Shown: positions 5,361 through 56,475 of the stretch, piece by piece
Numbering within the stretch: position 1 is the first letter of the stretch
Layout of the letters: each line of letters begins with the position of its first letter
Source of the DNA: Octopus sinensis
Lineage: Eukaryota
Length of the DNA: 64,000 bases
Assembly: GCF_006345805.1 (NCBI RefSeq)
Contig: NC_043000.1
Coordinates: 45,818,001-45,882,000 of the forward strand
Reading direction: 5' to 3'
Translations under genes and position numbers: made by a program
Notes under the pieces: model-generated
Database searches by the model: none
Seen by the model: the letters and a program-made list of their open reading frames with translations, nothing else
What the model was told of the DNA's origin: nothing

Positions 5361-8300
5361 ATTAATAATGTAATATACCAAAGAACAAAACAATTAAGTA
5401 AATATCTGAACATTTTGCTTACTTTGTCGAACTTACAATCAGCTGCAAATAATTGATGGTCTATAAAATAAAAATATGTATACAAACTCAACAATGAAAT
5501 ATTTTGCTGCTGGTGCATAAAACCTAGTGAAACAAACTCCAGATGGATTTCAAATTTTAAATGCCTAGATTACAAGCAGATGACTCATTATCAAGAGGAT
5601 CGTTTTTACCTTCTAAATATTAGACTAAATATTTTAAATAAAACTTCTGAATCAGCATGTTGAAAATGAATTCATGTGTTTATATTTATGTATCTTTTAA
5701 TGTGATATGTAGTTAATTTCTATTTGCCTATATAATGTAATTAGATTGTATTTGTATACATAGGCATGTGATCAGAATTTATTTGTGAAACCTTATCTAT
5801 ATCTAAAAATCTAAACAGTATTTTATTTTCTGCTGACTGAACCTTTCTTGGATATTGTAGTTTTAACTTCAAATTTTTTTCTTAAACAAGTCAATAAATA
5901 AATAGTCATATTGATTTTACATCTCATATATATCTTTCAATTCCAATGCCATTATAAGGTTGAATAACATTGGAAATTTATTTAAAATCACATTCCAGAA
6001 TCATCAGTTTTAGTGAATAAATTCTATTAAATATAAATAAAAGGAACAAGATATATATAAAAAAAAAATTGATTACTAAAATATATCACTTAGAAAATAT
6101 ATTGATATTAGAAAATTATGACATAGTTGACAATTGTAAATTTTATTAATTCAACTTCTGTTGAGAATTTCCAACAAAAGATATTTAATAAAATTGATAT
6201 TAAAAGTAAGCGAAGGGATATGATAAAGTGAATATTTACTCTTAAACTGAAAGGAAATGTCAAATACTTTGTCTTGATATATATATGGTGTCAACTGAGA
6301 TCAACTATGTAATATAAGATTCTAAAATGTTTATGGTGAGTTAAAAGAAGGCCTACTTGAAATGTAGCTGTCAATCAAAATATTTATCTATTATATATCA
6401 GGTGATATCTAGAAGCTCATATCATCTCCTCCATATAACATTTTCTCTTAACTCAAGAATACAATATAAAATCAGTAATCTCCAGCATTCTATGTCAGCA
6501 CTAAATAGAAAAGATTCCTTCAGTCATTTGACAACTTTATTTTTGACACACCCTACAACTCCTCCTCAAAGTTTATGACCCTGCATTACTAACATGTATA
6601 CTTAACTGAGACATTTGAACACTTGTGCAATTAATTATCAAGTCAATTTTTCTGAAGCTAAACAAGTAAATACATTACTGCATCATAAGGTTCACCTAGC
6701 ATTCTAGATGATTGCCAACCAAAGAGAAGGACTCATCACCAGCCCATAGGGCATTACTATACTCACCCACTGTCAACTTGTTTCAACGGTTTTCACTGGA
6801 TATTGAAAATTCTGGCCAAGTCCATAGCAGGTACCTATAGCAAGAGCCACCTGATTCATGTCAGGTAATGTCACCTTATCTTGGACTATTAGTTGAGACC
6901 ACTGCTTATTACCAGATATCCTGGTATAAATGTTTCTATGAGGTTTATACATTAAAGTAGCTATTTTCTGAGAGGTACAAAAAGAATGAGGCTTTCATTA
7001 TTGAACAATGTAAAAAATAAAATTCAAATCTTATGAATACACAAAAATATTTATAAAGAAATTAACCCATTTGTTTTTGTAATAAGGGTGGAGCAATAGG
7101 TTGTTCAGTTTGACATATAAAGGCAAAGACATATACACTTGAGAGCTGTTTAGTAAATTGCAGAGAAATTTTAGGATATGAAAATTTTTGTAAAGATTTC
7201 AAAAAAATATTAAGTCACCAACAAAATCTCTTGTCAGCATACTGCACTATATGATGCCATCCCAAAAAATTAAACTAATCTATTTAGATAAATTTCTACC
7301 GGAATATTGTTAAATAATAATGTTTGCTACTATCATAATTTTATGGAAGAAAAATATGATTGTAGATTCAAATATTTTTAAGTACAATTAAATATCCTCC
7401 ATCAATCACATTATGCTTGCCATAAATTTTAACATTGTCCTTTGAAGCATTTATAAAGAGATGGGAAAAATCATTAATTTTATTAATGCCTTCTTTGTAT
7501 CACTAACTACAAATGCTAAATGCAAATACTATACATGCTTTGATGTTCCAAAACTTTTTAGTAGTAAACTAATCAGTTGTTAATTAAGATGCTTCTCAAT
7601 CCTTAGAGAACAACTGAGACAATCAATTTTGTTTTAGAAAGGTGAAAAGACTAATTTCTTTAAAAAATGATTTTATTCTGTGTCTATTATAATTCTAACG
7701 TTTTGGGGCTTCTTTTATTCTGAGAATGTTAAAATACAACAGCCTTATTGTTTTTTGTATTTTTTGTATCTCATAAATATATTTCACCTTAGTATATTTC
7801 ACAAGCTGTTGTGTCATTATTATGGCTATATAATACTTGAAAGATATTTGACAAAATAAAATTTGTGTGATAATTTATATTCCTGAAGGGTAGAGGATTA
7901 AATTCAATGTAACATAGCTATCTTGCAATAATAGAATTAGTGGTAATTACAGTAACTAGTTAGTGATTACAGTACCCACTTTTAATGGTCTGGAAAACAA
8001 GTTATAAACTATGAATGCACTCAATTAGTTCTGAATTTTTAGTAATTAGTAAAGAAATTCAAATTAAATTAGAAAACTGAATGTCTATATTGTCTAAATT
8101 AACTAAACATATATATAGCAGTATGCATTTTAAAATTCTTTTTAGTAGCATATAAAACTTTTAAAAATAAGAGAGGAAGAATTTTCTATAATTTAATAAA
8201 TATTACTGGTAGTAACGTCTAACATTTTAAGAATATCCATAAAAATATTGAAGGAATGCAATTTCAGTGTTTTGTTTTGAAGGTTTTATGAAAGAAAGTG

Positions 8301-20102: not shown

Positions 20103-20804
20103 TATATATCAAAGTATCATTAGAGACAGAAACCCCATAAATTCATCAAATCAGAATATAAATTCAACCATGTCATAGAATATTATATTTAATACTTACT
20201 ATTCATGTTCAAAGTTGTCGACTACACGTGTTTCATGAGGTTATATACTATGTTCTTGAGACACCCAGTCTCTTACAGAACTTGCCCTTATATACAACCC
20301 CAATCTTCAGGTCCACCTATCACCCATTTATAATTTTATCTATCATTATATATTTCAAGTTACAGGTATATCAAACTATACAGATGTATAAAAAAATTTC
20401 TGATATCTCAAAACATATAGATGTGTAAATAAATTCATTGAACCCTGCAGTTTAAGCCATAATTAATTTAAGAATTAAATGTGAATAAAGCCTAAAAAAA
20501 TATATATAAATGAAAAATACATACGAATGAGAAAATATATGCAAATGTGGAAAAAATATATATACTAATGATAAGAAAATATAAAATTATAAGAATGAAA
20601 AACTTAAAAAGATATATATATCCAAATGATGGGCATGAATAAGCTAACACAAATGACAACAATTTAACATGAAATACGTGTGGTCAACAACTTTGAACAT
20701 GAATAGTAAGTATTAAATATAATATTCTATAACATGGTTGAATTTATATTCTGATTTGATGAATTTATGGGGATTTCTGTCTCTAATGATACTTTGATAT
20801 ATAT
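20103..20804. repeat. ~135-bp near-perfect inverted repeat around a ~430-bp spacer; probable inverted Penelope-type terminal repeat
   Basis: 20103-20237 is the reverse complement of 20668-20804; arms begin with GAAACACGTGTA-GTC (hammerhead stem-III-like palindrome); TA runs at both outer ends. Confidence 0.75.
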
Positions 20805-31687: not shown

Positions 31688-34600
31688 TGATGAGGTATCC
31701 AAAAGTAACCAGGAACTTCTCTGTGGGACAAGCCCCATGCAGTTCAGGCTTCCAACGCTAGAAGCCATTTGATGCAGTCCTCGGGCATCAGTCTATTGAC
31801 CTGCGTTGTTGACTGATGTCCTGCTGCCACACAGCATGTCTCTGTTTTGCTGTGCTTCTCCCCTGTTTGTAAATTTTTGTGATGTCTGAAATGAAAGAAC
31901 AACATGCTTCTATGAGATTCTGTTTTCTGGTGGAGAAAACAGGGGCTGAAACAGTTGTAATGAATCAAACAGCTTACAAGGATGCTGCCATGCGCAAAAC
32001 ATAAATATACACATGGTTTTTACACTTTAGGAATGGTCTCTTATCACTTGAAGACCAACCTCATTCCGAATGGCTGCTGACTTCTCGAAAAATGAAAACA
32101 TCACAAAACTTTCTGAACTAATCCCCGAGGACCATCACTGACGAAATTGATGAAGTAATTGATATGATTGGTGTCTCCTGAAGTTCTAGCCAATGAATTG
32201 TGATAGAGGAATTGTAGATGGAAAGAGTTGCAGCAAAATTTGTGCCACACTTGCTCACAGAAGATCAAATGCAGACATGACTGAATGCATGTTGTGAAGA
32301 TCAAACGCAGTCATAACAAAATGCATTTTGTGAAATGAATGCATGTTGTGAAGATCAAAAGCAGTCATGACTGAATGCATATTGTAAAATGAATGCATGT
32401 TGTGGAGATCAAAAGCAGTGATGACTGAATGCATGTTGTAAAGGTGAAAAGCAGTCATGACTGAAAGCATGTCGTGAAATGAATGCATGTTGTGCAGATC
32501 AAACGCAGTCATAACTGAATGCATGTCGTGAAATGAATGCATGTTGTGTAGATCAAAAGCAGTCATGACTGAATGCAAGTCGTGAAATGAATGCATGTGT
32601 GAAATGAATGCATGTTGTGTAGATCAAAAGCAGTTATAAAAAAATGCAAGATGTGAAATGAAGGAATGTTGCGAAGATCAAAAGCAGTCATAACTGAATG
32701 CATGTTGTGAAGATCAAAAGCAGTCATAACTGAATGCATGTTGTGAAATGAATGCAAGTTGTGAAGATGAAAAGCAGTCATGACTGAATGCATGTGTGAA
32801 GATCAAAAGCAGTCATAACTAAATGCATGTTGTGAAATGAATGCATGTTGTGTAGATCAAAAGCAGTCATGACTGAATGCAAGTCGTGAAATGAATGCAT
32901 GTTGTGTAGATCAAAAGCAGTTGTAAATAAATGCAAGATGTGAAATGAATGAATGTTGCGAAGATCAAAAGCAGTCATAACTGAATGCATGTTGTGAAGA
33001 TCAAAAGCAGTCATAACTGAATGGATGTTGTGAAATGAATGCATGTTGTGTAAATCGAAAGCAGTCATAACTAAATGCATGTTGTGAAATGAATGCATGT
33101 TGAGAAGATCAAAAGCAGTCATGACTGAACGCATGTTCTGATGATTAAAAGCAGTCATGACTGAATGCATGTTGCGAAATGAATGCATATTGTGATGATC
33201 ATAAGCAGTCATGACTGAATGCATGTTGTGAAGTTCAAAAGCAGTAATGACTGAATGCATGTTGTGAAATGCATGCACGTTGTGAAGATGAAAAGCAGTC
33301 ATGACTGAAAGCATGTCGTGAAATGAATGCATGTTGTGTAGATCAAAAGCAGTCATGACTGAATGCAAGTCGTGAAATGAATGCATGTTGTGTAGATCAA
33401 AAGCAGTTATAAAAAAATGCAAGATGTGAAATGAAGGAATGTTGCGAAGATCAAAAGCAGTCATAACTGAATGCATGTTGTGAAGATCAAAAGCAGTCAT
33501 AACTGAATGCATGTTGTGAAATGAATGCAAGTTGTGAAGATGAAAAGCAGTCATGACTGAATGCATGTTGTGAAGAAGAAAAGCAGTCGTAACTCAATGC
33601 ATGTCGTGAAATGAATGTATGTTGTGTAGATCAAAAGCAGTCATGACTGAATGCAAGTCGTGAAATGAATGCATGTTGTGTAGCTCAAAAGCAGTTGTAA
33701 ATAAATGCAAGATGTGAAATGAATGAATGTTGCGAAGATCAAAAGCAGTCATAACTGAATGCATGTTGTGAAGATCAAAAGCAGTCATAACTGAATGGAT
33801 GTTGTGAAATGAATGCATGTTGTGTAAATCAAAAGCAGTCATAACTAAATGCATGTTGTGAAATGAATGCATGTTGAGAAGATCAAAAGCAGTCTTGACT
33901 GAATACATGTAGTGAAGATAATAAGCAGTCATGACTGAATGCATGTTGTGAAATGAATGCATGTTGTGAAGATCGAAAGCAGTAATGACTGAATGCATGT
34001 TGTGAAATGAATGCATGTTGTGAAATGAATGCATGTTGTGAAGATCAAAAGCAGTCATGACTGAACGCATGTTCTGATGATTAAAAGCAGTCATGACTGA
34101 ATGCATGTTGCGAAATGAATGCATATTGTGATGATCATAAGCAGTCATGACTGAATGCATGTTGTGAAGTTCAAAAGCAGTAATGACTGAATGCATGTTG
34201 TGAAATGCATGCACGTTGTGAAGATGAAAAGCAGTCATGACTGAATGCATGTTGTGAAATGAATGCATGTTGTGAAGATCAAAAGGAGTCATGACTGAAT
34301 GCCTGTTGTGAAATGAATGCATGTTGTGAAATGCAAAAGCAGACATAACTGAGTGCATGTTGTGAAGATCAAAAGTGGTCATAACTGAATGCATTTTGTG
34401 AAATGAATGCATGTTGTGAAAATCAAAAGCAGTCATGACTGAATGCATATTGTAAAATGAATGCATGTTGTGGAGATCAAAAGCAGTGATGACTGAATGC
34501 ATGTTGTAAAGGTGAAAAGCAGTCATGACTGAAAGCATGTCGTGAAATGAATGCATGTTGTGCAGATCAAACGCAGTCATAACTGAATGCATGTCGTGAA

Positions 34601-37600
34601 ATGAATGCATGTTGTGTAGATCAAAAGCAGTCATGACTGAATGCAAGTCGTGAAATGAATGCATGTTGTGTAGATCAAAAGCAGTTATAAAAAAATGCAA
34701 GATGTGAAATGAAGGAATGTTGCGAAGATCAAAAGCAGTCATGACTGAATGTATGTTGCGAAGACCAAAAGTAGTCATAATTCAATGCATGTTGTGAAGA
34801 TCAAAAGCAGTCATAACTGAATGCATGTTGTGAAATGAATGCAAGTTGTGAAGATGAAAAGCAGTCATGACTGAATGCATGTTGTGAAGAAGAAAAGCAG
34901 TCGTAACTCAATGCATGTCGTGAAATGAATGTATGTTGTGTAGATCAAAAGCAGTCATGACTGAATGCAAGTCGTGAAATGAATGCATGTTGTGTAGATC
35001 AAAAGCAGTTGTAAATAAATGCAAGATGTGAAATGAATGAATGTTGCGAAGATCAAAAGCAGTCATAACTGAATGCATGTTGTGAAGATCAAAAGCAGTC
35101 ATAACTGAATGGATGTTGTGAAATGAATGCATGTTGTGTAAATCGAAAGCAGTCATAACTAAATGCATGTTGTGAAATGAATGCATGTTGAGAAGATCAA
35201 AAGCAGTCATGACTGAACGCATGTTCTGATGATTAAAAGCAGTCATGACTGAATGCATGTTGCGAAATGAATGCATATTGTGATGATCATAAGCAGTCAT
35301 GACTGAATGCATGTTGTGAAGTTCAAAAGCAGTAATGACTGAATGCATGTTGTGAAATGCATGCACGTTGTGAAGATGAAAAGCAGTCATGACTGAAAGC
35401 ATGTCGTGAAATGAATGCATGTTGTGTAGATCAAAAGCAGTCATGACTGAATGCAAGTCGTGAAATGAATGCATGTTGTGTAGATCAAAAGCAGTTATAA
35501 AAAAATGCAAGATGTGAAATGAAGGAATGTTGCGAAGATCAAAAGCAGTCATAACTGAATGCATGTTGTGAAGATCAAAAGCAGTCATAACTGAATGCAT
35601 GTTGTGAAATGAATGCAAGTTGTGAAGATGAAAAGCAGTCATGACTGAATGCATGTTGTGAAGAAGAAAAGCAGTCGTAACTCAATGCATGTCGTGAAAT
35701 GAATGTATGTTGTGTAGATCAAAAGCAGTCATGACTGAATGCAAGTCGTGAAATGAATGCATGTTGTGTAGCTCAAAAGCAGTTGTAAATAAATGCAAGA
35801 TGTGAAATGAATGAATGTTGCGAAGATCAAAAGCAGTCATAACTGAATGCATGTTGTGAAGATCAAAAGCAGTCATAACTGAATGGATGTTGTGAAATGA
35901 ATGCATGTTGTGTAAATCAAAAGCAGTCATAACTAAATGCATGTTGTGAAATGAATGCATGTTGAGAAGATCAAAAGCAGTCTTGACTGAATACATGTAG
36001 TGAAGATAATAAGCAGTCATGACTGAATGCATGTTGTGAAATGAATGCATGTTGTGAAGATCGAAAGCAGTAATGACTGAATGCATGTTGTGAAATGAAT
36101 GCATGTTGTGAAGATCAAAAGCAGTCATGACTGAACGCATGTTCTGATGATTAAAAGCAGTCATGACTGAATGCATGTTGCGAAATGAATGCATATTGTG
36201 ATGATCATAAGCAGTCATGACTGAATGCATGTTGTGAAGTTCAAAAGCAGTAATGACTGAATGCATGTTGTGAAATGCATGCACGTTGTGAAGATGAAAA
36301 GCAGTCATGACTGAATGCATGTTGTGAAATGAATGCATGTTGTGAAGATCAAAAGGAGTCATGACTGAATGCCTGTTGTGAAATGAATGCATGCTGTGAA
36401 ATTCAAAAGCAGACATAACTGAGTGCATGTTGTGAAGATCAAAAGTGGTCATAACTGAATGCATTTTGTGATATGAATGCATGTTGTGAAGATCAAAGGC
36501 AGTCATGACTGAATGCATGTTGTGAAATGAATGCATGTTGTGAAGATCAAAAGCAGTCTTGACTGAATGCATGTTCTGATGATTAAAAGAATTCATGACT
36601 GAATGCATGTTGTGAAATGAATGCATGTTGTGATGATCAAAAGCAGTCATGACTGAATGCATGTTATGAAATGAATGCATGTTGTGAAGATCAAAAGCAG
36701 TCATGACTGAATGTATGTTGCGAAGACCAAAAGTAGTCATAATTCAATGCATGTTGTGAAATGAATGCATGTTTTGAAGATGAGACGCAGTCATGACTGA
36801 ATGCATGTTGTGAAATAAATGCATGTTGTGAAGATCAAAAGCAGTCATGACTGAATGCATGTTGTAAAATGAATGCATGTTGTGAAAATCAAAAGCAGTC
36901 TTGACTGAATGCATATTCTGATGATTAAAAGCAGTCATGACTGAATGCATGTTGTGAAATGAATGCATGTTGTGAAATGAATGCCTGTTGTGATGATCAA
37001 AAGCAGTCATGGCTGAATGCATGTTGTGAAGTTCAAAAGCAGTCATGATTGAATGCATGTTGTGAAATGAATGCATGTTGTGAAGATCAAAAGCAGTCAT
37101 AACTGAATGCATGTTGTGAATATCAAAAGTGGTCATAACTGAATGCATGTTGTGAAATTATTGCATGTTGTGAAGATCAAAAGTGGTCATAACTGAATGC
37201 ATGTTGTGAAGATCAGAAGCAGTTATGACTGAATGCATTTTGTTAAATGAATGCATTTTGTGAAGATCAAAAGCAGTCATGACTGAATGCATGTTGTGAA
37301 ATGGATGCATGTTGTGAAGATGAAAAGCATTCGTGACTTTATGCATTTTGTGAAATGAATGCATGTTGTGAAGATCAGAAGCAGTCATGACTGAATGCAT
37401 GTTGTGAAATAAGTGCATGTTGTGAAGATGAAAAGCAGTCATTACTGCATGCATGTCGTGAAATGAATGCATGTTGCGAAGATCAAAATCAGTCATAACT
37501 GAATGCATGTCGTGAAATGAATGCATGTTGTGAAGATCAAAAGCAGTCATGGCTGAATGCATGTTGTGAAATGAATGCATGCTGTGAAGATCAAGAGCAG

Positions 37601-39770
37601 TCATGACTGAATGCATGTTGTGAAATGAATGCATGTTGTGAAGATCAAAAGCAGTCATAACTGAATGCATGTCGTGAAATGAATGCATGTTGTGAAATGA
37701 ATGCATGTTGTGAAAATCAAAAGCAGTCATAACTGCATGGATGTTGTGATGATCAAAAGCAGTCATGGCTGAATGCATGTTGTGAAGTTCAAAAGCAGTT
37801 ATGACTGAATGCATTTTGTGAAATGAATGCATTTTGTGAAGATCAAAAGCAGTCATGACTGAATGCATGTTGTGAAATGAATGCATGTTGTGAAATGAAT
37901 GCATGTTGTGAAGATGAAAAGCAATCGTGACTTTATGCATTTTGTGAAATGAATGCATGTTGTGAAGATCAAAAGCAGTCATGACTGAATGCATGTTGTG
38001 AAATAAATGCATGTTGTGAAGATGAAAAGCAGTCATGACTGAATGCATGTTGTGAAATGAATGCATGTGGCGAAGATCAAAATCAGTCATAACTGAATGC
38101 ATGTCGTGAAATGAATGCATGTTGTGAAGATCAAAAGAAGTCATGGCTGAATGCATGTTGTGAAATGAATGCATGCTGTGAAGATCAAGATCAGTCATGA
38201 CTGAATGCATGTTGTGAAATGAATGCATGTTGTGAAGATCAAAAGCAGTCATAACTGAATGCATGTCGTGAAATGAATGCATGTTGTGAAATGAATGCAT
38301 GTTGTGAAAATCAAAAGCAGTCATAACTGCATGCATGTTGTGAAGATCAAAACCAGTCATGACTGAATGCAAATTGTGGAGATCAAAAGCAGTCATAACT
38401 GAATGTATGTTGTGAAATGAATGCATGCTGTGAAGATCAAAAGCAGTCATGTCTCATTGCATGTTGTGAAGATCAAAAGCTGTCATGACTGAATGCCTGT
38501 TGTGAAATTAATGCATGTTGTGAAGATCAAAAGCAGTCATGACTGAATGCATGTTGTGAAATGAATGCATGTTTTGAAGATCAAAAGGAGTCATGACTGA
38601 ATGCCTGTTGTGAAATGAATGCATGTTGTGAAATGAATGCATGTTGTGAAAATCAAAAGCAGTCATAACTGCATGCATGTTGTGAAGATCAAAAGCAGTC
38701 ATGACTGAATGCATGTTGCGAAATGAATGCATGTTGTAAAATATATATATGTTGTAAAGATCAAAAGTGGTCATAACTGCATGCATGTTGTGAAGATCAA
38801 AGTCAGTCATGACTGAATGCATGTTGTGAAATAAATGCATGTTGTGAAGATCAAAAGAAGTCATGACTGAATGCATGTTGTGAAGATCAAAAGTGGTCAT
38901 AACTGAATGCATGTTGTGAAATGAATGCATGTTGTGAAGATCAAAAGCAGTCATGACTGAATGCATGTTGTGAAATGAATGCATGTTGTGAAGATCAAAA
39001 GCAGTCTTGACTGAATGCATTTGGTGAAATGAATGCATGTTGCGAAGATGAAAAACAGTTGTGACTGAATGCATGTTGTGTTTGGGCCTTATTCTGAAGG
39101 TCATCACTGGTGATGAAAGCTGCTGTTATAGCTTTGATCCGGAAACAAATCAAAAATCAAGTCAATGGAAGCATTCGGTGTCACCATACCCTCAGTAAAA
39201 CTTGTCAATTGAAGTTCAATATGAAGATGATGCTTAATTGTTTCATCGGTGTGTAAGGAATTGTCTATACAGAATTTGTTCCTCCTAGTCAAACTCTTAA
39301 CCAGACATTTTGCCTTGGCAATTCTGAAGCATTTGCAAGACATGGTGAGACGAAAACACCCCAAGCTGTGACAAAGTTGACAGTAGTGGTGTCATCACGA
39401 CAATACACCTGCACACACCACCTTGAGCAAGAGATAGTTTTTGACCAAAAATGGCATGACCCCACTTACCCACCCCCTCTATTCATCCTGTCTTTGCTTC
39501 CTTCAACTTTTTTTTGTTCCTTCAAATGAAAAAATTCTTAAAGGAAAATTTTTTGCAGATGTGGAAGAGGGTGAAGAAAAAAATGAGAGAGGTGTTAAAA
39601 GGCATCACTTTGCAAGAGTTTTAGGCCTGCTTCAAACAGGGGAAATCACATCTGGTCCAATGTATTGCTTCAAATGGAGAATACTTTGAAGGCGGTAACT
39701 GTATAAACATGTAAAACTAAGTGAATAAAATAATATTGCAAAATTCTGGTCTCTTTTGAGTACTATCTAC
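31688..39770 (+). mobile_element. Mariner transposon (~1.27 kb of element) split by an internal 6.8-kb satellite
   Basis: Degenerate TA-flanked TIRs; left part MSEMKEQHASMRFCF...MERVAAKFVPHLLTEDQ; right part KVITGDESCCYSFDPETNQKSSQWK...HHDNTPAH...THPLYSS...GEYFEG. Confidence 0.92.
32260..39080. repeat. Complex minisatellite/satellite of 36-bp and 18-bp units with higher-order duplications
   Basis: Units GAAGATCAAAAGCAGTCATGACTGAATGCATGTTGT and GAAATGAATGCATGTTGT; diagnostic variants recur at offsets 594, 774, 1314 and 2070-2088 bp (all multiples of 18). Confidence 0.98.
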
Positions 39771-54790: not shown

Positions 54791-54886
54791 TGTGTGTGTG
54801 TGTGTGTGTGTATGAGAGTCTCTCTCTCTCTCCCTCTCCCTGATGACTGATGACTGATAATATGTATATGTACAGATATACATACA

Positions 54887-54919
<33 letters not shown>

Positions 54920-54921
<2 letters not shown>

Positions 54922-55918
54922 TTCAACAATTGAGGGCAAAATTAATTAATTATTAATCAATTTCACCAAGTGTTCAGTATGCAAAGGGACCATTCAAGGC
55001 GAATTCAAATTATTACATTATATAAAAGGGCTTAGTAAAATAAATTACTTTGCCGCATACTGAACTCATTAGAAATAGCAGCTAAAAAACTTTTTTAAGC
55101 TATTTCTAGTACTTAAAGAAAATCTCTCTCATATATAGTGTTTGCTTAATTCAACTCACAAAAGTTTGGGGGTAAGGACATCGAAAAATCAAATGCTAAG
55201 GTTATTTGAGAACGTACGTTTCAAGATTAGTCAAAACAACACTTCTATCATCAGCTCAGAAATTCCTTGGTTTGGATTTGGAAACACTGAAAATAAGAAC
55301 ATACCCTTTCGAAGATCTGCTCGTAACTAACAGTGCCAACAAATTCAATAAGCAAGCGAAGAATCTCTGTTCTCCCCTTTCCACCAGCGTGGGTTAAAAT
55401 CATCAAACACTATGCTTATTTCGGTAAAATCCGAAGCATTAATCAGAGGGAGATTAATTATAATTTCAACAATTGAGGGCAAAATTAATTAATTATTAAT
55501 CAATTTCACCAAGTGTTCAGTATGCAAAGGGACCATTCAAGGCGAATTCAAATTATTACATTATATAAAAGGGCTTAGTAAAATAAATTACTTTGCCGCA
55601 TACTGAACTCATTAGAAATAGCAGCTAAAAAACTTTTTTAAAGCTATTTCTAGTACTTAAAGAAAATCTCTCTCATATATAGTGTTTGCTTAATTCAACT
55701 CACAAAAGTTTGGGGGTAAGGACATCGAAAAATCAAATGCTAAGGTTATTTGAGAACGTACGTTTCAAGATTAGTCAAAACAACACTTCTATCATCAGCT
55801 CAGAAATTCCTTGGTTTGGATTTGATGATAGAAGTGTTGTTTTGACTAATCTTGAAACGTACGTTCTCAAATAACCTTAGCATTTGATTTTTCGATGTCC
55901 TTACCCCCAAACTTTTGT
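54920..55918 (-). mobile_element. Young Penelope-type/retrozyme-like element: partial tandem of a 544-bp unit with two hammerhead motifs and a 96-bp terminal inversion
   Basis: Near-identical direct repeats 54920-55280 and 55463-55824; 55823-55918 is the exact reverse complement of 55702-55797; minus-strand TGAG-CTGATGA...GAAACGTACGTT-CTCA at ~55207-55258 and ~55751-55802. Confidence 0.75.
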
Positions 55919-56475
55919 TTGGTCATGTGGTTTGGTCATGTGGTTTGGTCATGTGGTCATGTGATGTATATGGATGAGAACAGCTGTGTAAAGAAGTGCT
56001 GAACTCTAATTGTAAAGGGTACCTGTGGAAGGGGGACTAGACTTAGGAAGACGTAAGATGAAGTGATAAGAAAGGATCTTTGGATACTGGGCCTCACTGA
56101 GGAAATGACGAGGGACTAGGAGATGTGATGATTTGCTGTACTTGATAAGGAGTGTCAAGCTAGGTAAAATCAGTCTTCTGCACATACAAGCTGGTTTTTT
56201 CAGGTGCCAGTGCCACTTAAAAAGTATCCATGCTGGTGCTGCATAAACACACTTGAGCTGGTGGCACATAAAATGCATCCAGCACACTCTTTTAAGTGGT
56301 TGGCATTAGAGGAAGGGCAACCAGCCATGGAAACCATGCCACAACAGACAATCAATGTCTGGTCAGCTTTGGTAGCTAGCTCCATGTCAAACCATCCAGC
56401 CAATGGAGAGTGGACATGGAGAGTGGACATGGAGAGTGGACATGGAGAGTGGACATCACACAATGATGATGATGA
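55918..56475 (+). mobile_element. 5'-truncated RTE LINE with family D tail
   Basis: Repeated WFGHV-coding 14-mer, then KKC*TLIVKGTCGRG..RKT*DEVIRKDL; 14-bp tandem CATGGAGAGTGGA x4 near 56402-56456; (GAT)n tail. Confidence 0.75.

What the first reader, a model, noticed from the sequence alone, without database searches (positions are those of the whole stretch)
54920..55918. 544-nt noncoding unit bounded by two hammerhead motifs: candidate retrozyme / circular-RNA retroposon
Seen: near-identical ~360-bp direct repeats 543-544 bp apart, an exact 96-bp inversion at one end, and a microsatellite at the other. On the minus strand each repeat has TGAG-CTGATGA-[T AGA AGT loop ACT aa TCT T]-GAAA-C-GTAC-G-TT-CTCA. 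This gives stem I TGAG/CTCA, both conserved cores, a palindromic stem III (ACGTACGT) and a GUU cleavage triplet. Known: Penelope-like elements carry minimal hammerheads with palindromic loop 3 that cleave as dimers and insert as partial tandems with inverted 5' ends, and metazoan non-LTR retrozymes produce circular RNAs from such tandems. Inference: a minus-strand transcript could self-cleave twice and release a 544-nt monomer with no recognisable protein, mobilised in trans by a Penelope RT. The stem II base is atypical (U.U), so activity is uncertain.
Basis: partly seen in the sequence, partly recalled or inferred. Interest (0 to 1): 0.75.

Follow-up and report, generated by a model that had tools for sequence, protein, structure and literature searches.

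The report
Hammerhead-bearing tandem retroposon, Penelope-type insertion
This stretch is one copy of a very young, abundant 544-base non-coding tandem repeat that carries a Penelope-type hammerhead ribozyme motif in every unit and sits in a microsatellite; it is likely copied around the genome by a Penelope-like element's enzyme, and its RNA is predicted, not shown, to cut itself.

Summary
It comprises 1.67 tandem units (period 543/544), a perfect 96-nt inverted 5' arm, a microsatellite at the 3' end and a complete minimal hammerhead (HHR) motif per unit on the minus strand.

The unit is an independent non-coding element. The genome holds at least 743 candidate loci, and arrays run from 0.14 to 7.5 units.

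Insertions carry the signature of Penelope-like elements (PLEs). Of 70 complete 3' ends, 62 abut (TA)n. 5' ends are variable. 32 of 39 insertions are head-to-head two-armed.

Arms end at two fixed internal sites, about unit 198 and 296, which amounts to a 98-nt "tail". In 28 of 31 complete two-armed insertions one arm ends at each site.

A sister family (about 83% identical) and older subfamilies keep the HHR cores and an even better conserved module around the two start sites.

A young (TA)n-specific PLE with a short or tailed end co-exists, but it shares no sequence with the unit and has no HHR.

Self-cleavage and circular RNA remain untested. Folding energies do not favour the catalytic fold, and Rfam models miss this HHR type.

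Verdict: a new member of the known non-LTR retrozyme / non-autonomous PLE class, with an unusually clear insertion record.

The parts
54915..55824 (-). Sense arm: 1.67 tandem units (unit positions 475-544, 1-544, 1-296). Its 3' end lies at the '296' start site, joined to the microsatellite.
   Evidence: L001 1205-2114 = window 54915-55824
55823..55918 (+). Inverted 5' arm (unit 502-544 plus 1-53), joined head-to-head to the sense arm with a 2-nt overlap. Its outer end at unit 53 is atypical: it is not a TA site.
55211..55754 (-). The 544-nt monomer between the two predicted hammerhead cleavage sites (33% G+C, no ORF over 65 aa).
55207..55258 (-). Hammerhead motif, copy 1: helix I TGAG/CTCA, CUGAUGA, helix II, GAAA, palindromic ACGUACGU, N17 = U. 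Predicted cut 55211|55210.
55751..55802 (-). Hammerhead motif, copy 2, identical to copy 1. Predicted cut 55755|55754.
55823..55869 (+). Truncated hammerhead in the inverted arm. It starts at U4 of the CUGAUGA box, so C3 and the 5' strand of helix I are missing.
55467..55626 (-). Most conserved module of the unit (positions 129-288) with predicted conserved stems. It spans the first start site and leads to the second. Inferred to be the RT recognition/initiation module. A second copy lies at 54923-55082.
55557..55569 (-). '198' reverse-transcription start site (UUUAUAUAAUGUA), internal and unused in this copy. A second copy lies at 55013-55025.
54915..54927 (-). '296' start site (UGUUGAAAU-UAUA), used as the 3' junction of this insertion. 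An internal copy lies at 55459-55471.
54860..54919 (.). (TA)n/(ACAT)n microsatellite = target flank at the 3' end of the sense arm.
55917..55967 (.). Three copies of the 13-mer GTTTGGTCATGTG abutting the inverted arm. This is the flank, not part of the family.

Best explanation
This is an insertion of a very young, high-copy, non-coding 544-nt tandem retroposon that carries one Penelope-type minimal hammerhead motif per unit, and it was most likely made by the reverse transcriptase/endonuclease of a Penelope-like element acting in trans.

Shown: what the copies look like. Inferred: the mechanism below.

1. The enzyme nicks both strands of a (TA)n-type microsatellite.
2. Each freed 3' end primes reverse transcription at one of two fixed AU-rich internal sites of the RNA, near unit positions 198 and 296.
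3. Synthesis runs through one to several unit lengths on a multimeric or circular template.
4. The two cDNAs are joined head-to-head by a few bases of microhomology.
5. The result is two inverted arms, one of which carries a 98-nt tail.

The hammerhead is predicted to act as a dimer in multimeric transcripts and would cut them to 544-nt monomers that could be circularised. Neither cleavage nor a circle has been shown. The window's own copy has the usual '296' end, but its short inverted arm ends atypically at unit 53.
For: Copy number and age:
- at least 244 matches and 743 candidate loci, 96-100% identical.
- 56 full units differ by a mean of 1.9 substitutions within arrays (63 pairs) and 3.0 between arrays (1477 pairs).

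Insertion anatomy (39 independent insertions taken from the top hits):
- 32 are two-armed and always head-to-head.
- 7 are single-armed; one of these (L082) has an older 88% arm.
- 62 of 70 complete 3' ends are followed by at least 11/14 (TA)n letters.
- Of 31 complete two-armed insertions, 28 pair a '198' end with a '296' end, 1 is 198/198, none is 296/296 and 2 have an odd end. For 28 of 29, binomial P = 5.6e-8.
- Inner junctions show 0-8 nt of overlap (one of 15) or 1-25 nt of filler.
- Lineage variants sit on both arms in L020, L073, L076, L079, L084 and L096.
- The same ends occur in older subfamilies and in other copies picked by the HHR pattern: 6 of 6 complete two-armed insertions are hetero.
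- The same ends occur in the sister family B: 2 of 2.

Match to the PLE literature:
- PMC11167929 (main text read): a PLE enzyme cleaves and extends both strands, starts at two adjacent internal RNA sites, and the 'tail' is the stretch between them.
- PMC8557442 (passages read): PLEs show tandems, an inverted 5'-truncated copy, a tail at one end only and a (TA)n bias.

Autonomous PLEs in this genome:
- 5029 GIY-YIG candidates.
- one family has an intact 781-aa RT plus C-terminal GIY-YIG ORF with a CX4CxxC linker.
- at least 989 candidate loci, 26 of them 100% identical over 233 nt.
- 8 of 8 ends lie in (TA)n.
- 2 of 32 ends carry a tail of about 36 nt, and L131 is two-armed with one short and one tailed end.

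Hammerhead:
- the motif is far beyond chance.
- other PLE-type HHRs in this genome have the same architecture with different 8-nt palindromes.
- PMC4209133 (passages read): PLE min-HHRs have a short helix I, a long bulged helix II and a small palindromic helix III.
- (39 family-B units sampled with a probe outside the HHR): 1 of 64 majority differences falls in the 27 core, helix I, helix III and N17 positions. That one is N17 U>A, which is allowed.
- the 5 differences in helix II keep its pairs (U-A to U.G, U.G to C-G, U.U to G.U) or lie in a bulge or loop.
Against: - No sequence similarity was found between the unit and the 781-aa PLE or 40 other PLE loci. The only hits were a nested insertion in L046 and the older related foldback copy in L053.
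- That PLE has no HHR core, so the driver is not identified.
- HHR conservation between families A and B is not significant on its own (hypergeometric P = 0.15).
- There is no compensatory double change in the HHR helices.
- The catalytic fold is not favoured: monomer +0.6 vs MFE -6.6 kcal/mol, dimer -13.4 vs -23.6 kcal/mol.
- Position 10.1/11.1 is U.U in this family.
- Rfam finds no hammerhead. It also misses a textbook minimal PLE HHR in L067, so this says little.
- Some arrays are mosaics of lineage variants (L030, L071, L093, L095). This fits heterogeneous multimeric templates better than a single circle.
- The census covers only 39 of at least 743 candidate loci, chosen by score.
- The window's own inverted arm ends at unit 53 in a non-TA flank.
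Confidence: 0.8

Rival explanations
1. Same PLE-dependent retroposon, but the template is the unprocessed linear multimeric transcript. The hammerhead is dispensable or vestigial for mobility, and no circular RNA is involved.
For: - PMC11167929 (main text read): HHR mutants do not affect insertion in vitro, unprocessed RNA is the main substrate, and no RNA-seq ends lie at the HHR site.
- Mosaic arrays occur.
- The catalytic fold is not favoured.
- 5' ends of arms are not enriched at unit position 1.
- In X1, a contig of 170 nt spans the cut site (table 8).
Against: - HHR cores, helix I and helix III are unchanged across family A, family B and at least 3 older subfamilies, despite 12-19% overall divergence.
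- On a long multimer many 198 and 296 sites are available, so near-obligate one-of-each pairing needs an extra assumption.
Confidence: 0.4
2. A satellite or minisatellite spread by DNA-level processes (unequal crossing-over, segmental duplication, rolling-circle DNA), with a hammerhead-like motif that has no role.
For: Tandem arrays of up to 7.5 units. Some identical flanks point to segmental duplicates (L168/L169).
Against: - Hundreds of dispersed loci on many contigs have fixed 3' ends, variable 5' ends, microhomology junctions and (TA)n targets.
- The two arms are always 5'-to-5'.
Confidence: 0.03
3. A piece (pLTR/UTR) of a longer autonomous PLE, not an independent element.
For: PLE pLTRs carry min-HHRs. 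Retrozymes are reported to derive from pLTRs (bioRxiv 10.64898/2026.07.22.740005; abstract, Results part 1 and search passages read).
Against: - Arrays have a 544-nt period with no ORF.
- None of the 39 insertions adjoins a PLE ORF.
- There is no similarity to 40 PLE loci apart from the nested L046 insertion and the older foldback copy in L053.
- No listed unit hit lies within 10 kb of a listed GIY-YIG hit (lists compared by eye).
Confidence: 0.05
4. A foldback DNA transposon (MITE) using TA targets.
For: - Inverted arms and TA-rich flanks.
- An older ~280-320-bp foldback family, about 70% similar to unit 85-300, is dispersed as a constant structure (2475 candidates).
Against: - In the 544-nt family the arms differ in length and inner breakpoints from copy to copy.
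- The ends are internal sites of a tandem unit, not terminal inverted repeats.
Confidence: 0.03

Closest known systems
Metazoan non-LTR retrozymes (Cervera & de la Pena 2020, PMC7229834; passages read)
   Same: - Non-coding, low-G+C tandem units with one type-I hammerhead each.
- Dispersed from dimers to multimers.
- Co-exist with PLEs.
- Amphibian members need the dimeric hammerhead.
- The published model is target-primed copying of a circular RNA into tandem cDNA.
   Different: - The unit is 544 nt, against about 170-400 nt (51-972 bp in the 2026 preprint).
- The hammerhead is the minimal PLE type, without recognisable loop-loop contacts, not the canonical type.
- Circular RNA and cleavage are not shown here.
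- The insertion signature seen here (two start sites, tail, inverted arm, (TA)n) is not described for retrozymes in the passages I read.
Penelope-like elements and their insertion mechanism (PMC8557442, passages read; PMC11167929, main text read; PMC4209133, passages read)
   Same: - Partial tandems and an inverted 5'-truncated arm.
- An extension ('tail') at one end only.
- Two internal RT start sites, with both DNA strands extended.
- AT-rich/(TA)n targets.
- A min-HHR with palindromic helix III lying upstream of the start sites.
   Different: - No ORF.
- The tail is 98 nt, not 30-40 nt.
- The start sites here resemble the (TA)n target, whereas the studied PLE starts at a site not homologous to the cut DNA.
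- No sequence homology to any PLE examined.
L1 twin priming
   Same: Both nicked strands prime on one RNA, giving an inverted 5' part joined by microhomology.
   Different: Here both primers use fixed internal sites, both arms can be several unit lengths long, and the event is the rule (32 of 39), not the exception.

Membership tests
Type-I hammerhead ribozyme, PLE-type minimal variant | Conserved core CUGANGA ... GAAA with an NUH cleavage triplet. | tested here: met
   CUGAUGA, GAAA and GUU|C are present in both units. 0 chance hits in 300 simulated windows.
Type-I hammerhead ribozyme, PLE-type minimal variant | Short helix I (4-5 bp), long bulged helix II and a small palindromic helix III allowing a dimer (PMC4209133). 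| tested here: met
   - Helix I is UGAG/CUCA.
- Helix II has 6-7 pairs with bulges.
- Helix III is the palindrome ACGUACGU.
- Position 10.1/11.1 is U.U here and G.U in family B.
Type-I hammerhead ribozyme, PLE-type minimal variant | Match to the curated covariance models (Rfam hammerhead families). | tested here: inconclusive
   No hit at gathering score or at E<=10. The same search also misses a clean minimal PLE HHR in L067.
Type-I hammerhead ribozyme, PLE-type minimal variant | Self-cleavage at the predicted site. | not testable with these tools
   Only contigs of public runs could be laid. The energies do not favour the catalytic fold.
Metazoan non-LTR retrozyme | Non-coding tandem repeats with a type-I HHR in every unit, dispersed and low in G+C. 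| tested here: met
   (33% G+C). 150 HHR instances in 39 loci, 80 of them identical to the window's.
Metazoan non-LTR retrozyme | Expressed as linear and circular monomer RNA. | not testable with these tools
   No run is on record as RNA. One guessed-RNA run shows an A>G/T>C excess, which is only a hint of transcription.
Metazoan non-LTR retrozyme | Canonical HHR with helix I/II loop contacts (invertebrate members). | tested here: not met
   Helix I is open with 4 pairs and no loop 1. The motif is the minimal PLE type.
Non-autonomous derivative mobilised by a Penelope-like element | PLE insertion signature: partial tandem, inverted 5'-truncated arm, one-sided tail from two RT start sites, AT-rich target. 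| tested here: met
   28 of 31 complete two-armed insertions pair 198 with 296. 62 of 70 ends lie in (TA)n.
Non-autonomous derivative mobilised by a Penelope-like element | An active autonomous PLE in the same genome with the same target. | tested here: met
   A 781-aa RT+GIY-YIG family with intact ORFs and near-identical copies. 8 of 8 ends lie in (TA)n, and 2 of 32 ends are tailed.
Non-autonomous derivative mobilised by a Penelope-like element | Sequence homology of the unit to a PLE terminal region (pLTR). | tested here: not met
   No significant BLAST match to the 4805-bp PLE unit. The 40 PLE loci gave only a nested insertion (L046) and the older foldback copy (L053). A pattern search for the same helix III found only relatives of the unit and short isolated motifs.

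The most novel reading that the evidence does not exclude
Each integration is one concerted event in which a dimeric Penelope-type enzyme holds a single retrozyme RNA. That RNA is a monomeric circle carrying exactly one '198' and one '296' site. The enzyme primes the two nicked DNA strands from the two sites at once, and both polymerases run round the circle. This would explain why one arm of nearly every insertion starts at each site, why both arms share a haplotype, and why both can be several units long. The family would then be a natural genomic record of double-strand priming and rolling-circle reverse transcription. It would also be a hammerhead-bearing parasite driven by a PLE that has lost its own hammerhead.
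Probability: 0.3. Interest if true: 0.7.

Novelty: new member of a known kind. Interest (0 to 1): 0.5.

Why it matters
Retrozymes have been linked to Penelope-like elements by co-occurrence and by pLTR similarity. This family adds a different kind of evidence. Hundreds of near-identical, recent insertions record where reverse transcription started, that both DNA strands were extended, and that the two start sites are used one each per event.

That matches the in vitro behaviour of the one PLE enzyme studied so far. It also adds a rule (hetero-pairing of start sites) that can be tested biochemically.

The family is young and has a sister family. That makes it a practical system for asking whether the minimal hammerhead and a circular RNA matter for mobility.

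Tried and rejected
- **Rfam**: no hammerhead hit. It was uninformative, because a clean PLE min-HHR is missed too. The 96-bp inverted repeat gave only spurious miRNA-hairpin hits.
- **Run-off at the cleavage site:** arms seeming to begin at unit position 1 looked like run-off, but this was a BLAST artefact. The arms extend 3-25 nt further. Rejected.
- **Within- versus between-array divergence** and haplotype phasing: they do not separate a circular from a multimeric template.
- **Folding**: the catalytic fold is neither the monomer nor the dimer minimum.
- **Search for the parent PLE:** BLAST against 40 PLE loci and a pattern search for the same helix III found no parent.
- **RNA evidence:** no RNA holder is listed. 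Contigs of four runs were laid. Contigs cannot show RNA ends.
- **Earlier findings**: none for this genome.
- **Pfam on the unit's short frames**: nothing above cut-off.
- **HHR-like motif at L062:784/6719**: it lies in duplicated flanking DNA, not in the PLE.

Full report
**1. Observation**

- Direct repeats lie at 54920-55280 and 55463-55824. The two segments are 100% and 98% identical, and one indel makes the period 543/544.
- A perfect 96-nt inverted arm lies at 55823-55918.
- An (ACAT)n/(TA)n microsatellite abuts 54920.

On the minus strand each unit reads TGAG-CUGAUGA-(25 nt)-GAAACGUACGUU-CUCA.
- The predicted cleavage sites are 55211|55210 and 55755|55754.
- A strict descriptor was used: core boxes, an 8-nt A...U palindrome, H17 and at least 4 helix-I pairs. 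It gave 0 hits in 300 simulated 64-kb windows and 2 hits here.
- The inverted arm starts inside the CUGAUGA box, so its hammerhead copy is incomplete.
- Open frames in the unit are at most 65 aa, without Pfam support.

**2. What it is**

The 544-nt monomer is a repeat family of its own.
- The window's genome is 2.72 Gb. It gives at least 244 matches from 743 candidate loci at 96-100% identity, many in tandem.
- 56 full units differ by only about 2-3 substitutions, so the family is very young.

I took 39 independent insertions from the best hits.
- Arms span 0.14 to 7.46 units, with a median of 1.9.
- 62 of 70 complete 3' ends run into (TA)n.
- 3' ends fall at only two places in the unit. They are labelled 198 (..UUUUAUAUAAU) and 296 (..GUUGAAAUUAUA). 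Because of overlap with (TA)n, the true ends lie at about 193-198 and 292-296.
- 5' ends are scattered.
- 32 of the 39 insertions are two-armed. They are always 5'-to-5', and are joined by 0-8 nt of overlap (one of 15) or by 1-25 nt of filler.
- Of 31 complete two-armed insertions, 28 pair one 198 end with one 296 end. One is 198/198, none is 296/296, and two have one odd end. The window's copy is one of those two: 296 with unit 53. Binomial P = 5.6e-8.
- Lineage variants usually sit on all units and on both arms, but four arrays are mosaics.
- The same ends and pairing appear in older or pattern-selected copies (6 of 6 complete two-armed).
- They also appear in a sister family B of about 552 nt and about 83% identity, with 1898 candidate loci (2 of 2).

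**3. Comparison with the literature**

- PMC8557442 (passages read) lists the PLE hallmarks: partial tandems, an inverted 5'-truncated copy, a 30-40-bp tail at one end only, and a (TA)n bias in clades with a CX2-5CxxC linker.
- PMC11167929 (main text read) shows for one PLE enzyme that both strands are cleaved and extended. Reverse transcription starts at two adjacent internal RNA sites whose spacing is the tail. The protein is predicted to dimerise. The hammerhead is protein-assisted and dispensable in vitro.
- PMC4209133 (passages read) describes PLE min-HHRs with a 4-5-bp helix I, a long bulged helix II, a small palindromic helix III, dimeric action and low activity.
- PMC7229834 (passages read) defines metazoan non-LTR retrozymes and proposes PLEs as drivers.
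- The preprint 10.64898/2026.07.22.740005 (abstract, Results part 1 and search passages read) derives retrozymes from pLTRs.

The family here fits all of these. Its 98-nt stretch between sites 198 and 296 behaves as a PLE tail.

**4. The candidate driver**

- GIY-YIG matches are abundant: 5029 candidates, of which 147 of 150 scored are listed.
- One family has a 4805-bp unit, L062:1354-6158.
- A CX4CxxC linker is present (read by eye).
- It has at least 989 candidate loci, 26 of them 100% identical over 233 nt.
- All 8 ends examined lie in (TA)n.
- 2 of 32 ends carry a tail of about 36 nt, and L131 is two-armed with one short and one tailed end.
- However, it has no hammerhead core and no similarity to the 544-nt unit. 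It is therefore the best candidate, not an identified driver.

**5. The hammerhead**

- Other PLE-type hammerheads in this genome share the architecture but have different palindromes. Examples are ACUCGAGU, ACGAUCGU, ACAUAUGU, ACAAUUGU and ACAGCUGU.
- Within family A, the only variants seen in more than one independent locus change the length of loop II or one helix-II pair.
- Against family B, 64 of 544 positions differ in the majority (the probe lay outside the HHR).
  - Only N17 (U>A) differs among the 27 core, helix I, helix III and N17 positions (P = 0.15).
  - The five helix-II differences keep pairing or lie unpaired.
- Older subfamilies agree, but they were ascertained through the core pattern.
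- There is no compensatory double change in the HHR.
- Nearest-neighbour energies favour an alternative hairpin that sequesters GAAAC.
- Rfam is silent but blind to this type.
- Activity is therefore predicted, not shown.

**6. A better conserved module**

- Positions 129-288 carry 5 of the 64 A/B differences, where 18.8 are expected (P about 1e-5).
- RNAalifold on 8 natural copies predicts three features:
  - a 13-bp hairpin whose loop length varies, with one compensatory A-U to G-C change in family B;
  - an 11-bp long-range stem enclosing the 198 site;
  - an AU-rich hairpin just before the 296 site.
- I infer that this module is what the reverse transcriptase recognises.
- An older dispersed foldback family (2475 candidates, 78-92% identical) is about 70% similar to unit 85-300. 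It has the form of a short 296/198 two-armed insertion.

**7. RNA**

- No run is on record as RNA.
- Contigs of one guessed-RNA run (X1) show 23 A>G and 39 T>C among 90 change places.
- Two DNA-like runs (X19, X22) show balanced changes.
- This looks like A-to-I editing of transcripts from both strands, but it comes from one run of unknown kind.

**8. Verdict**

The element class and the PLE-type mobilisation are well supported. Self-cleavage and a circular intermediate are open. The linear-multimer template is a serious rival for that part. This is a new member of a known kind, with an unusually legible insertion record.

Noticed in passing
window 20130-20775 (minus strand; HHR 20310-20219): A second, unrelated PLE-type hammerhead motif (CUGAAGA ... 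GAA-ACACGUGU-A, 3 helix-I pairs). It lies in a ~650-bp element with 108-nt inverted arms (95%) next to TA/CA microsatellites.
   Followed up: partly
L062:1354-6158 and loci L061-L070, L119-L148: A very young (TA)n-specific Penelope-like family: 4805-bp unit, 479-aa ORF1, and 781-aa RT + GIY-YIG ORF2 with a CX4CxxC linker. It has no hammerhead core and has alternative short or ~36-nt tailed 3' ends.
   Followed up: yes
L156, L161-L190: Sister family B of the retroposon: about 552-nt period, about 83% identical to the window's unit, 1898 candidate loci and 97-98% identical copies. It has the same 198/296 ends. Its hammerhead has G.U at 10.1/11.1 and GUA as the cleavage triplet.
   Followed up: yes
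L053:2602-2870 and L099-L118: An older dispersed ~280-320-bp foldback family (2475 candidates, 78-92% identical), about 70% similar to unit 85-300. It is shaped like a short two-armed 296/198 insertion and lies in (TA)n beside a PLE 3' end.
   Followed up: partly
run X1 on window 54920-55918: Contigs of a run guessed to be RNA carry mostly A>G (23) and T>C (39) differences out of 90 places, unlike two DNA-like runs. This looks like A-to-I hyper-editing of transcripts from both strands.
   Followed up: partly
L062:1-1353 = 5934-7291: A 5.9-kb direct duplication (99.2%) that includes the PLE copy plus 1.1 kb of flank. The flank holds an HHR-like motif (784, 6719) and a SINE-like segment. By eye, a similar SINE-like segment lies at window ~56180-56360.
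   Followed up: partly
window 32778-39125 (minus strand): A run of long stop-free frames (205-431 aa). Five of the six give a partial match to the same ~40 residues of the Ras family (Pfam E 4e-7 to 5e-4), so a short Ras-like piece is repeated in tandem.
   Followed up: no
L061:6537-6620 and 7629-7702; L053: (TA)n microsatellites hold several different PLE-type insertions side by side: a PLE 3' end, other min-HHR-bearing pieces and the foldback family. They act as nests for this class.
   Followed up: no
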